Of a stretch of 62,373 nt of DNA, positions 32,690 to 35,609 are shown in pieces. The notes under the pieces were generated by a model. That model worked only from the letters and a program-made list of their open reading frames with translations. It was not told the origin of the DNA and made no database searches. The stretch covers positions 7,150 through 69,522 of the forward strand of contig CAZUPO010000003.1 in NCBI GenBank assembly GCA_964621595.1. The letters are read 5' to 3'. Source of the DNA: an uncultured Candidatus Saccharibacteria bacterium (GTDB lineage: Bacteria; Patescibacteriota; Minisyncoccia; Phycocordibacterales; UBA5272). The stretch's first letter is position 1. Every line of letters starts with the position of its first letter. The position numbers and the translations under genes are program-made.

Positions 32690-33262
32690 CTAGAAATTTA
32701 CCTTTGGTGCCTTTGCTGCACCTTCTTCGGACTCAAATGCTTTCTTTGCTTCAAAACCAAAAAGTTTTGCTACAAAAATACCTGGGAATGTTTTCACTTT
32801 CACATTCCATGCATTAACAAGTTCGTTGTAACGCATGCGTTCGACGGAAACACGATTCTCTGTCCCCTCTAGTTGCGCCATAAGTGATTGAACATTTTCA
32901 CTTGATTTAAGTTGAGGGTAATTTTCAGTGATCACAAGAAGGCGAGAAAGTGCCGATTCCATCTGTCCAGCAGCTAGAGCCTTCTCGTCTGTTGTGCGCG
33001 CACCAGCATACCCCTGACGAGCATTAGCGATGGCAGTAAAAACAGTGGTCTCTTGCTTCATAATACCCTGAACTGAAGCAACAAGATTCGGAATGAGATC
33101 GAAACGACGTTGATACTGTGTTTCCACCTGCGCCCACTGAGTATTTACAGACTCATTAAGAGAAACGAGTGAATTGTACGAACCAACCACCCATAATAGA
33201 AGAGCAAGAACAATCCCACCACCAATAATGAGACCCTTATGTTGTGTAAAAAATGTTTGCAT
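32690..33262 (-). CDS. lemA: LemA family protein
   Basis: 'YNSLV...E.V...WAQVETQYQRRFDLIPNLV' after one TM segment. Start at ATG 33262. The longer ORF to 33481 runs through noncoding element L2. Confidence 0.9.
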   Translation of the reverse strand: MQTFFTQHKGLIIGGGIVLALLLWVVGSYNSLVSLNESVNTQWAQVETQYQRRFDLIPNLVASVQGIMKQETTVFTAIANARQGYAGARTTDEKALAAGQMESALSRLLVITENYPQLKSSENVQSLMAQLEGTENRVSVERMRYNELVNAWNVKVKTFPGIFVAKLFGFEAKKAFESEEGAAKAPKVNF

Positions 33263-33323
33263 ATATAAAGTGTAACATAGAATAATAGTTGCAAATATAT
33301 AATTTTTACTTGCACGAAAAGAG

Positions 33324-33457
33324 GTTCGGTCACAAATCTGCCTCTTAGACAACTGGCGAATTGAAGCATTCTCGAACACCTCACGGTGCGATTTACTAAT
33401 CACCCGTATTCGAATCCCTCCGTAAAGCCAAGCAGTTGGCTTTACTTCTCTCCGCCA
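33324..33457. repeat. tRNA-linked noncoding element L2 (homologous to L1)
   Basis: Exact 21-mer GTTCGGTCACAAATCTGCCTC (33324-33344). Shared blocks GAAGCAtTCtCGA and CCCgTATTCG. Inverted copy of the tRNA-Ser 3' end, TTCGAATCCCTC (33409-20) ... TCTCTCCGCC (33447-56), split by a perfect 10-bp hairpin (33422-45). Confidence 0.7.
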
Positions 33458-33460
33458 AAT

Positions 33461-33489
33461 AAAAAATGCATGCGTCTGCATGCTTTTTT
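33461..33489. terminator. Bidirectional terminator 3' of tRNA-Ser
   Basis: AAAAAATGCATGC-gtct-GCATGCTTTTTT. Confidence 0.8.
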
Positions 33490-33496
33490 ATACCGG

Positions 33497-33583
33497 CGGA
33501 GAGAGAGGGATTCGAACCCTCGAACCGGTTACCCAGTTGCCACCTTTCCAAGGTGGTCGATTAAACCACTCTCGCATCTCTCC
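33497..33583 (-). tRNA. tRNA-Ser (GGA), class II with long variable arm
   Basis: Acceptor GGAGAGA/TCTCTCC, anticodon arm CCACC-TTGGAAA-GGTGG, variable arm AACTGG-gtaa-CCGGTT, T arm GAGGG-TTCGAAT-CCCTC. 87 nt. Confidence 0.9.
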
Positions 33584-35048: not shown

Positions 35049-35609
35049 TTAGAATTTCACCGCGACTGGATTACGTGCTACGTTTTCCCCTTCTGCTAAT
35101 TCAAAGAATTCTTTTTCCGTGAAGGAAAAAGTTTTTGCAATAAAGTTTGATGGGACTGTTTGAATCTTAGTGTTATACGTCATTACTGTACTATTATAGA
35201 ATCTACGCGCTGCTTGAATTTTGTTCTCAGTATCTGAGAGTTCATTTTGGAGTGAAAGATAATTCTGATTTGACTTCAAATCTGGGTAATTTTCAGAAAG
35301 TGCAAAAATACTTTTAAGAGTACTACTTAATACTGTTTCTGCCTCAGCATGTTCTTTCGTGGTCTCTGCTCCCATGGCCTTGGAGCGAGCCTCCACAACT
35401 TTTTCGAGGGTTGAAGATTCGAAACCAGCAGAACCTTTTACAGTTTCTACTAAATTTGGGATAAGGTCGTAGCGACGCTTAAGTTGTACATCGATATCCG
35501 CCCACGCTTCTTTAACTTGTTGACCTGCAGTAACCAGCCCGTTATACATACCAATAATGACAAAACCAATGATAACAACGATCGCAATAATAATATAAAT
35601 AGTGGTCAT
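35049..35609 (-). CDS. lemA: LemA family protein (second copy)
   Basis: 'YNGLV...Q.V.EAWADIDVQLKRRYDLIPNLVE' after one TM segment. 186 aa. Confidence 0.9.
   Translation of the reverse strand: MTTIYIIIAIVVIIGFVIIGMYNGLVTAGQQVKEAWADIDVQLKRRYDLIPNLVETVKGSAGFESSTLEKVVEARSKAMGAETTKEHAEAETVLSSTLKSIFALSENYPDLKSNQNYLSLQNELSDTENKIQAARRFYNSTVMTYNTKIQTVPSNFIAKTFSFTEKEFFELAEGENVARNPVAVKF

What the first reader, a model, noticed from the sequence alone, without database searches (positions are those of the whole stretch)
33300..33520. Element L2: homologue of L1 beside tRNA-Ser, carrying an inverted, hairpin-split copy of the tRNA-Ser 3' end that ends in CCA
Seen in the sequence: L2 shares three blocks with L1. 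These are the exact 21-mer GTTCGGTCACAAATCTGCCTC (33324-33344), GAAGCA(g/t)(a)TTC(g/t)CGA (33363-77 versus 17978-92), and CCC(c/g)TATTCG (33403-33412 versus 17993-18002). As in L1, the last block runs into an imitation of the neighbouring tRNA's own T-loop/acceptor strand. Here that imitation is TTCGAATCCCTC (33409-20), then a perfect 10-bp hairpin GTAAAGCCAA-gcag-TTGGCTTTAC, then TCTCTCCGCC-A (33447-57). It is the reverse orientation of the real tRNA-Ser 3' end (33497-33518), with a bidirectional terminator between the two copies. The 21-mer pairs with a downstream segment in both elements (AATCTGC/GCAGATT in L1, AATCTGCC/GGCGAATT in L2) around different loops, which hints at a conserved stem. 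Because each copy imitates its own adjacent tRNA, the tRNA-like parts must be generated locally, by integration, gene conversion or templated repair. Possible roles include att-site remnants with a conserved element end, antisense or decoy RNAs against the tRNA 3' region, or tRNA-trailer processing structures.
Basis: partly seen in the sequence, partly recalled or inferred. Interest (0 to 1): 0.7.

Follow-up and report, generated by a model that had tools for sequence, protein, structure and literature searches.

The report
Relic of a tRNA-targeting mobile element
L2 is a decayed, cargo-less end-piece of a previously undescribed family of small mobile DNA elements in Saccharibacteria that insert into the T-loop region of tRNA genes, and whose full-length relatives carry a large serine recombinase and a filamentous-phage-type replication protein.

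Summary
The 21-mer, the 12-nt and 10-nt inverted copies of the tRNA-Ser 3' end, the perfect 10-bp hairpin between them and the bidirectional terminator all lie at the stated coordinates.

L1 and L2 belong to a family of over 80 copies in Saccharibacteria-type genomes and metagenomes. About 50 lie 29-66 nt past the 3' end of a convergent tRNA gene, covering at least 20 tRNA species. Each unit has four parts:
- a direct repeat of the tRNA 3' end;
- a conserved core hairpin;
- an inverted tRNA-end copy, split at the T-stem/acceptor junction by a covarying hairpin with a GCAG loop;
- a terminator.

Units occur in tandem, with cargo genes, and at the far end of 3-7 kb elements. In nine of nine related loci those elements encode a G2P-type rolling-circle Rep, plus a large serine recombinase whose gene abuts the tRNA.

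L2 is therefore best read as a degenerate miniature derivative of such an element. Its core hairpin is broken and its direct repeat has decayed. The CCA ending is probably coincidence.

Why the inverted, hairpin-split copy exists remains unexplained. So does how near-identical cores, and 70-90% identical recombinases, sit at different tRNAs. No Rfam family or paper matched.

The parts
33495..33583 (-). tRNA-Ser(GGA), the target gene. Its last ~20 nt (T loop C56 to the 3' end, + strand 33495-33514) are the sequence 'X' that the element copies.
   Evidence: ARAGORN; Rfam tRNA at 54.3 bits.
33458..33494 (.). Bidirectional intrinsic terminator: stem GCATGC/GCATGC with A- and T-tracts. It forms the tip of a long palindrome joining the tRNA 3' end to its inverted copy.
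33447..33457 (+). Inverted copy of the acceptor 3' strand of tRNA-Ser (TCTCTCCGCC, then A).
   Evidence: Inverted repeat I1.
33421..33446 (+). The 'hp' module, C-GTAAAGCCAA-gcag-TTGGCTTTAC-T, inserted at the T-stem/acceptor junction of the inverted copy. It is a family-wide feature with a conserved GCAG loop.
   Evidence: All 9 stem pairs covary and 98.8% of cells are paired in 27 copies. List of hp variants.
33409..33420 (+). Inverted copy of the T loop plus T-stem 3' strand (TTCGAATCCCTC). It is the right arm of helix P1.
   Evidence: Inverted repeat I2, 100% complementary.
33385..33404 (+). Small extra hairpin 'S' (GGTGCGATTTACTAATCACC). It looks like a ~23-nt insertion in L2. The same hairpin occurs at other positions in other copies.
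   Evidence: Also seen in L007, L010 and L046 and in L003.
33328..33380 (+). Core helix P2 of L2. The 5' arm GGTCACAAATCTGCCTC (33328-33344) is intact. The 3' arm (GAAGCATTCTCGAACACC, 33363-33380) is degraded, so the helix no longer forms.
   Evidence: Comparison with L109.
33310..33327 (+). Decayed direct repeat of the tRNA-Ser 3' end, ending in GAGG-TTCG. It is the left arm of P1.
   Evidence: In an ungapped comparison 7/9 match next to the core and 3/13 further out.
17925..18092 (+). L1, an intact alpha-type copy beside tRNA-Arg(CCT). Its parts are: direct repeat 17925-17941; P2 17946-17994; T-loop/T-stem copy 17999-18009; hp 18012-18033; decayed acceptor copy 18035-18044; terminator palindrome 18045-18093.
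   Evidence: (87.5 bits).
18093..18165 (-). tRNA-Arg(CCT), the target gene of L1.

Best explanation
L2, like L1, is a miniature cargo-less unit of a family of integrative mobile elements that insert into the T-loop region of tRNA genes in Saccharibacteria and related Patescibacteria.

Full-length elements:
- They are 3-7 kb long.
- They encode a large serine recombinase whose gene ends on the tRNA 3' end.
- They also encode a filamentous-phage-type (G2P) rolling-circle Rep.

Proposed mechanism:
- Integration supplies a replacement tRNA 3' end, called X, plus a terminator next to the tRNA.
- It pushes the original 3' end outward, where it becomes the direct repeat.
- The element's far end is a structured non-coding module: an inverted X copy split by the hp hairpin, then a conserved core hairpin (P2), abutting the displaced repeat.
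- Mini units keep only X, the terminator and this module.
- They arise either by deletion between the tRNA's X and an internal pseudo-X of a full element, or by insertion in trans.

L2 is an old copy. Its P2 is broken, it has acquired an extra hairpin, and its outer repeat has decayed.

Shown: the family, its anatomy, its position beside tRNAs, the repeats, the tandem and cargo arrays, and the linkage to the recombinase and Rep.

Inferred: that the serine recombinase performs the insertion, where the crossover lies, and that the hairpins are cis-acting sites of the element (recombinase arm and/or single-strand origin).
For: Size and position of the family:
- There are over 80 alpha-type copies.
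- About 50 lie 29-66 nt from the 3' end of a convergent tRNA, across at least 20 tRNA species.
- An inverted copy of the T loop plus T stem lies downstream of 30/77 tRNAs in these loci, against 4/77 in the control. In unrelated Patescibacteria loci the figures are 2/35 against 3/35.

Repeats and arrays:
- Perfect direct repeats of the tRNA 3' end measure 17-33 nt.
- Tandem units decay progressively away from the tRNA. Each unit's inverted arm matches the trailer of the X copy preceding it (L018; L014).
- Cargo arrays occur, with promoters directly after each repeat (L013; L016).

Link to full-length elements:
- In L008, 2.9 kb carrying a Phage_CRI Rep lies between tRNA-Leu and an alpha copy, flanked by a perfect 22-nt repeat.
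- All nine Rep-homologue loci have a 483-556 aa Resolvase+Recombinase(+Zn ribbon) protein ending at or overlapping a tRNA 3' end.
- The distal modules of L131 (alpha type, 70 bits) and L137 (perfect 19-nt repeat) have the same architecture.
- In L135 a mini unit sits between the recombinase end and the tRNA.

Evidence of exchange between sites:
- L1's core, hp, acceptor copy and terminator are about 95% identical to a copy beside a different tRNA-Arg in another genome. Copies at orthologous tRNA-Arg(CCT) sites differ in these parts.
Against: - No recombinase or Rep lies in the 62-kb window or beside most mini copies. Action in trans is assumed.
- Only three full-length elements were tied directly to a distal module of this architecture.
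- Canonical serine-integrase recombination on duplex DNA needs neither the inverted X copy nor the hp hairpin.
- Nearly identical alpha cores sit at over 20 tRNAs, and recombinases 67-90% identical sit at different tRNAs. This is unusual for normally site-specific serine integrases.
- The 9 nt of the repeat next to the core are conserved (81%) while the rest decays (48%). Three A.C positions in P2 read as G.U on the tRNA-sense strand (199 versus 9 cells). Both point to a constraint on a folded single strand, DNA or RNA, that the simple model does not explain.
- L2's own direct repeat is barely recognisable.
Confidence: 0.68

Rival explanations
1. The units are genes or trailers for a structured RNA read from the tRNA-sense strand. 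This would be a mini-tRNA-like RNA with an acceptor-like stem, one hairpin replacing the D and anticodon arms, and a T-stem carrying a large insertion. It would be made by terminator read-through or co-transcription, cut out by tRNA-processing enzymes, and act on tRNA metabolism or on the element itself.
For: - P2's non-Watson-Crick positions are G.U on the tRNA-sense strand (199 versus 9 cells).
- P2 variants show fully compensatory changes, and all 9 hp pairs covary.
- Copies after tRNA-Cys lack a U-tract terminator, so co-transcription is likely there.
- Copies are kept at orthologous tRNAs in several genomes.
- The minus-strand RNA fold of L1 has z = -7.0.
Against: - Most copies lie between a strong bidirectional terminator and the next gene's promoter.
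- An RNA role does not explain the direct repeats, the tandem and cargo arrays, or the link to recombinase/Rep elements.
- The acceptor part of the outer repeat is decayed in most copies, so a tRNA-like 3' end is usually absent.
- There is no Rfam match.
- Inverted-repeat symmetry for a dimeric DNA-binding protein would give the same covariation.
Confidence: 0.15
2. The module is a recombination site that works as folded single-stranded DNA. The inverted X and the direct X pair to imitate the duplex tRNA target, as in integron attC sites or the CTX-phage attP hairpin. An excised mini unit would be a ~170-nt dumbbell circle produced by the rolling-circle Rep. The recombinase could be the linked serine enzyme or a host enzyme.
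For: - The order X - spacer - inverted X - core - X is what single-strand exchange with a folded hairpin would leave.
- One unit folds almost completely as DNA, with z = -10 to -14.
- There is strand asymmetry.
- The linked Rep is of the single-stranded filamentous-phage type.
- Cassette-like arrays exist.
Against: - Serine recombinases are known to act on duplex DNA.
- No tyrosine recombinase or integron integrase was found.
- The attC consensus boxes are absent: GTTCGGT does not fit GTTRRRY.
- The acceptor pairing is often decayed.
- No circular or free forms were found.
Confidence: 0.12
3. The similarity is an accident of palindrome extension around tRNA terminators, by template switching during replication, and has no element behind it.
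For: - The inverted acceptor copy is contiguous with the terminator palindrome and often reproduces the tRNA trailer exactly.
- Quasi-palindrome correction is an established mutational process (own knowledge).
Against: - It cannot produce an identical ~50-nt core and a conserved hp module in over 80 places.
- It explains neither the outer direct repeats nor the link to recombinase/Rep elements.
Confidence: 0.03

Closest known systems
SCC elements of staphylococci (CcrAB large serine recombinases integrating at the 3' end of rlmH/orfX); own knowledge
   Same: - A large serine recombinase is involved.
- Insertion occurs at the 3' end of a conserved housekeeping gene, which is restored.
- Direct repeats flank the element.
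- Tandem accretion occurs.
- Recombinase-less derivatives are presumably moved in trans.
   Different: - The target here is the T-arm of many different tRNA genes.
- The elements also carry a rolling-circle Rep.
- Mini units are only ~170 bp.
- The far end carries an inverted, hairpin-split copy of the target.
tRNA-targeting genomic islands such as tycheposons (bioRxiv 10.1101/2020.12.28.424599) and ssrA islands of Dehalococcoides (PMC3146451, title and abstract only)
   Same: - Partial tRNA copies flank the elements.
- New arrivals push older ones outward.
- Degenerate remnants accumulate beside the tRNA.
   Different: - In tycheposons each tRNA has its own tyrosine integrase.
- Here one nearly invariant core is found at over 20 tRNAs, and 70-90% identical serine recombinases sit at different tRNAs.
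- The inverted split copy has no counterpart there.
Integron attC sites and the CTX-phage folded attP hairpin; own knowledge
   Same: - An imperfect palindromic site sits at the far end of each unit.
- There is a bulged extra-helical feature and a variable apical region.
- Arrays lie beside a fixed primary site.
- A single strand appears to matter.
   Different: - There are no R'/R'' consensus boxes, no integron integrase and no dif-like site.
- The arms are 20-nt copies of a tRNA end.
- The linked enzyme is a serine recombinase.
Non-autonomous derivatives of mobile elements (MITEs, CIMEs, solo LTRs, Ff miniphage); own knowledge
   Same: Short cargo-less units keep only the cis-acting ends and outnumber the autonomous elements.
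   Different: - There are no terminal inverted repeats of the usual kind.
- Part of each unit is specific to its own target gene.

Membership tests
Alpha-type L elements (family defined here; covariance model R1) | Match to the model built from 27 copies | tested here: met
   L1 scores 87.5 bits (E 3e-17). L2 scores 30.7 bits (E 7.6e-5) and the alignment skips its interior.
Alpha-type L elements (family defined here; covariance model R1) | Position 29-66 nt past the 3' end of a convergent tRNA gene, with a terminator palindrome between | tested here: met
   L2 lies 52 nt and L1 54 nt from its tRNA. Terminator.
Alpha-type L elements (family defined here; covariance model R1) | Intact core helix P2 (17 pairs) | tested here: not met
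   For L2 the 3' arm is degraded and no P2 forms in the folds. L1 has it.
tRNA-integrating island (att sites) | Direct repeat of the tRNA 3' end at the far side of the insert | tested here: inconclusive
   L1 has a perfect 17 nt repeat. In L2 only about 7 of the 9 nt next to the core match, and 3/13 further out.
tRNA-integrating island (att sites) | Recombinase gene linked to the insert | tested here: not met
   None is in the window. A large serine recombinase is present in related full-length elements L130-L138.
Large-serine-recombinase integrative element | attP x attB exchange at a central dinucleotide catalysed by the linked enzyme | not testable with these tools
   This needs recombination assays. 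Repeat boundaries only place the junction in the T loop.
Inovirus (filamentous phage) | G2P-type Rep plus morphogenesis (Zot-like) and coat genes | tested here: inconclusive
   A Rep is present in related elements (Phage_CRI, E down to 1e-15). Its only phage relative is the filamentous phage WC36-1. None of the other ORFs scanned had a Zot-like or coat-protein match; one had only weak, sub-threshold matches to unrelated domains.
Integron attC site | R'' RYYYAAC and R' GTTRRRY boxes, and an integron integrase nearby | tested here: not met
   The junction sequences are GTTCGGT or NNCGGTC and ATTCGAA. No tyrosine recombinase motif was found.
Known RNA families (tRNA, T-box, Y-RNA-like, riboswitches, ribozymes) | Rfam covariance-model match | tested here: not met
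   Nothing over L1 or L2 at gathering or E-value thresholds. Only the flanking tRNAs match.
MITE | Terminal inverted repeats and a fixed-length target-site duplication | tested here: not met
   Repeats vary from 7 to 33 nt. The unit's ends are not inverted repeats of each other.

The most novel reading that the evidence does not exclude
The inverted, hairpin-split copy of the tRNA end may be a working target-recognition device. By folding against the tRNA-end copy it would let one recombinase/Rep system insert at any tRNA that shares the T-arm. Mini units would then be active ~170-nt dumbbell-shaped satellites that replicate and integrate in trans. That would amount to a nucleic-acid-programmed way of retargeting a serine integrase.
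Probability: 0.15. Interest if true: 0.85.

Novelty: new variant of a known kind. Interest (0 to 1): 0.6.

Why it matters
Saccharibacteria have tiny genomes, and little is known about how they exchange genes. This family marks many of their tRNA genes as insertion sites. It also links those sites to a compact element type that combines a large serine recombinase with a filamentous-phage-type (G2P) rolling-circle Rep.

Closely related serine recombinases sit at different tRNAs, and the elements carry the matching tRNA end themselves. If that reflects relaxed or programmable targeting, it would interest people who use serine integrases for genome engineering. The conserved hairpins are also a ready marker for finding such elements in metagenomes.

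Tried and rejected
- **Riboswitch or leader for the downstream genes.** The genes differ (a Vut_1/YhhQ-like transporter after L1, LemA after L2) and there is no Rfam hit.
- **T-box or primer-binding-site idea (pairing with mature tRNA, CCA).** The copies reproduce the gene trailer, not CCA.
- **tRNA-primed retroelement, retron, IS200/605, IS110 bridge RNA, casposon-like target duplication.** None fits. No RT or transposase shares the ends, and repeat lengths vary.
- **Search for a conserved neighbouring protein by all-against-all BLAST and a tyrosine-recombinase motif scan.** Both were negative. The one hit was an IS256-type transposase.
- **Using LemA synteny to find an empty tRNA-Ser site.** The closest relative is only 73% identical and the gene order differs. 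This gave empty sites in distant genomes but no precise before/after pair.
- **Viral contig scans for the core and for the Rep.** Nothing was found.
- **Literature searches.** No description of this family was found.
- **Resemblance of L009 1500-1540 to the Ff-phage plus-strand origin.** This rests on memory only and was not tested.

Full report
**1. Observation**

- The 21-mer occurs exactly twice in the window, with none expected by chance.
- The repeat finder confirms the 12-nt perfect inverted copy of the T loop and T stem (33409-33420 against 33505-33516).
- It confirms the acceptor copy running into the terminator palindrome (33447-33473 against 33478-33504).
- It confirms the perfect 10-bp hairpin between them.
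- The terminator scores on both strands.
- The neighbouring genes are tRNA-Ser(GGA) and, for L1, tRNA-Arg(CCT).

Three corrections apply.
- L1 also has a perfect 17-nt direct repeat of the tRNA-Arg 3' end on its far side.
- The stem proposed for L2 is weak, and the conserved partner arm is degraded there.
- The CCA is probably accidental.

**2. A family, not a pair**

Exact-pattern scans with the two conserved blocks found copies only in Saccharibacteria-type MAGs and metagenome contigs. None were found in viral contigs.

A covariance model built from 27 copies finds 69 strong matches (E ≤ 1e-5) in about 350 kb of these loci plus the window. It finds none in 408 kb of other Patescibacteria sequence.

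Combining nhmmer with ARAGORN, about 50 copies lie 29-66 nt beyond the 3' end of a convergent tRNA gene. At least 20 tRNA species are involved. The remaining copies are second or third units of tandems, or are separated from the tRNA by 1.2-3 kb of inserted genes. L2 is a weak but significant member and L1 a strong one. Rfam has nothing like it, and literature searches found no description.

**3. Anatomy**

In the window's + orientation a unit consists of:
- the reverse complement of the tRNA 3' end, as a direct repeat of the gene's own end, 7-33 nt long;
- a core helix P2, GGTCACAAATCTGCCTCG...CGAAGCAGATTCGCGACC;
- CC(G)TA;
- TTCG-NN plus the T-stem 3' strand;
- the module AC-G-N8-GCAG-N8-C-T (hp);
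- the acceptor 3' strand plus trailer;
- a bidirectional terminator;
- the tRNA gene.

The hp module interrupts the inverted copy one base before the T-stem/acceptor junction. All nine hp pairs covary.

P2 is highly conserved, but variant copies replace its middle with fully complementary alternatives. Its three conserved non-Watson-Crick positions are A.C on the + strand, which is G.U or G.T on the tRNA-sense strand. That gives 199 cells against 9 of the opposite kind.

The 9 nt of the outer repeat that pair with the inner T-stem copy stay 81% identical to the tRNA. The next 13 nt fall to 48% (ungapped, so both figures are slight underestimates).

One whole unit folds almost completely as a single strand, with z = -10 to -14.

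Other core types (called beta, gamma and so on here) share the same layout.

**4. Signs of insertion**

- Tandem units show increasing decay away from the tRNA. Each unit's inverted arm matches the trailer of the repeat that precedes it. This is what successive insertions at the tRNA would produce.
- L013 shows units alternating with small genes. A TTGACA-17-TATAAT promoter follows directly after the first repeat, and a TTGACA-17-TATACT promoter after the second.
- L016 and L009 have 1.2-1.3 kb of genes between the tRNA and the unit.
- The variable parts of L1 (hp, decayed acceptor copy, terminator) are about 95% identical to a copy beside tRNA-Arg(GCG) in another genome. Copies at orthologous tRNA-Arg(CCT) sites all differ. 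The module has therefore moved or been exchanged between sites.
- Many relatives have an empty flank after tRNA-Ser(GGA).
- The inverted-copy signature is enriched only in the loci that carry the family: 30/77 against 4/77 in the control, and 2/35 against 3/35 elsewhere.

**5. Full-length elements**

In L008 the 2.9 kb between tRNA-Leu(CAA) and an alpha copy encodes a G2P/Phage_CRI rolling-circle Rep. The whole segment is flanked by a perfect 22-nt repeat.

Searching with that Rep gave nine further loci. In every one, an ORF of 483-556 aa follows the Rep and ends at or inside the 3' end of a convergent tRNA gene. Nine different tRNAs are involved. Each ORF is a large serine recombinase. L008 retains only the last 105 codons of such a gene.

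The Rep's only phage relatives in the phage collection searched here are filamentous-phage records (24% identity, E 5e-12). No morphogenesis gene was recognised, so whether these elements are phages or plasmid-like remains open.

Evidence at the far ends:
- L131 ends in an alpha-type unit 5.7 kb from tRNA-Val(GAC).
- L137 ends in a beta-like unit with a perfect 19-nt repeat 6.6 kb from tRNA-Trp.
- In L135 a mini unit lies between the recombinase end and the tRNA.
- Full elements carry a decayed internal pseudo-copy of the tRNA end next to the inverted arm. Deletion between it and the tRNA would leave exactly a mini unit. This last step is inference.

**6. Interpretation of L2**

L2 has the family's position, terminator, perfect inverted arms and hp. 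However, its P2 3' arm is degraded and resembles a different P2 type seen in L109. It carries a 23-nt extra hairpin, and its outer repeat is almost gone. No recombinase or Rep lies within the window, which is otherwise made of housekeeping genes. I read L2 as an old, immobilised mini unit whose terminator now serves tRNA-Ser.

**7. What remains unexplained**

- Duplex-DNA serine recombination does not require the inverted copy, the hp or P2. Yet these are the conserved parts, and one strand seems to matter.
- Recombinases 67-78% identical over their length, plus an 89.5% identical 105-residue C-terminal remnant in L008, sit at different tRNAs. One core type occurs at over 20 tRNAs.

Two readings stay open. 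One is a folded single-strand site or origin linked to the rolling-circle Rep. The other is an RNA made from the tRNA-sense strand, which is plausible where no terminator intervenes. Neither can be settled without experiments.

**8. Verdict**

The finding is real and is not an RNA of a known class. It is best filed as a new variant of tRNA-targeting integrative elements, with L2 a relic of it. Interest is moderate to high because of the unusual end structure and the apparently flexible tRNA targeting.

Noticed in passing
window 33385-33404; also L007 1276-1408, L010 ~3960-4030, L046 ~10130-10170, L003 ~1470-1500: A small hairpin, GG(Y)(K)CGATTTACTAATC(R)CC, recurs at different positions inside and beside units: in the P2 loop, after the T-stem copy, inside hp and in flanks. 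It behaves like a tiny insertion module.
   Followed up: partly
L016 3225-4524: Two single-gene cassettes (a GNAT acetyltransferase and a HAD hydrolase) lie between tRNA-Ser(GCT) and the L unit. Each is followed by an ~85-nt imperfect palindrome (GACCCACATAC...GTGTGGGTAC) and preceded by the repeat CCGCCATAAWGTAAAAGTATCG. This may be a second, different cassette system at the same tRNA.
   Followed up: partly
L044 230-404; L077 4541-4720: At tRNA-Ser(GGA) in two genomes, a copy of the tRNA 3' half (anticodon arm to 3' end, ~55 nt) lies 17-30 nt from the full gene. This is the signature of a different insertion class that crosses over in the anticodon loop.
   Followed up: no
L130-L138 (recombinase ORFs listed): Serine recombinases 70-78% identical lie at tRNA-Ser(TGA), tRNA-Val(CAC) and tRNA-Ser(GGA). 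These three tRNAs share the 12-nt T-arm sequence GAGTTCGAATCT but differ in the acceptor. A 67% identical pair lies at Val(GAC) and Ile(GAT).
   Followed up: partly
L009 1500-1540 (minus strand as shown): GTGGACTCTAG TTTTTTG AACTGGAACA, next to the unit's terminator, resembles my recollection of the Ff phage plus-strand origin (GTGGACTCTTGTTCCAAACTGGAACA). This rests on memory only. The motif CTCTGTGGACTCTA also recurs about 270 nt away, inside an ORF.
   Followed up: no
window 61990-62065: For the tRNA between the 5S and 23S rRNA genes, ARAGORN cannot assign an anticodon ('ac'), although Rfam scores it as a normal tRNA (56 bits).
   Followed up: no
window 32690-33262 and 35049-35609: Two LemA-family genes flank the tRNA-Ser/L2 locus. 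In relatives the order is LemA - two genes - tRNA-Ser. The LemA gene just after L2 may therefore be a later addition or duplication at this tRNA.
   Followed up: partly
window 17900-17925 versus L014 2255-2275: About 25 nt to the left of L1's direct repeat (CTTCGGTCTATC...TAAC) resembles the spacer between the two tandem units of L014. This suggests L1 once had, or derives from, a tandem neighbour.
   Followed up: no
L024 5632-6669 (-) and L026 9480-10589 (+): Two loci that carry alpha copies also encode serine-recombinase homologues (33-36% identity to the tRNA-linked ones). These are not next to a predicted tRNA.
   Followed up: no
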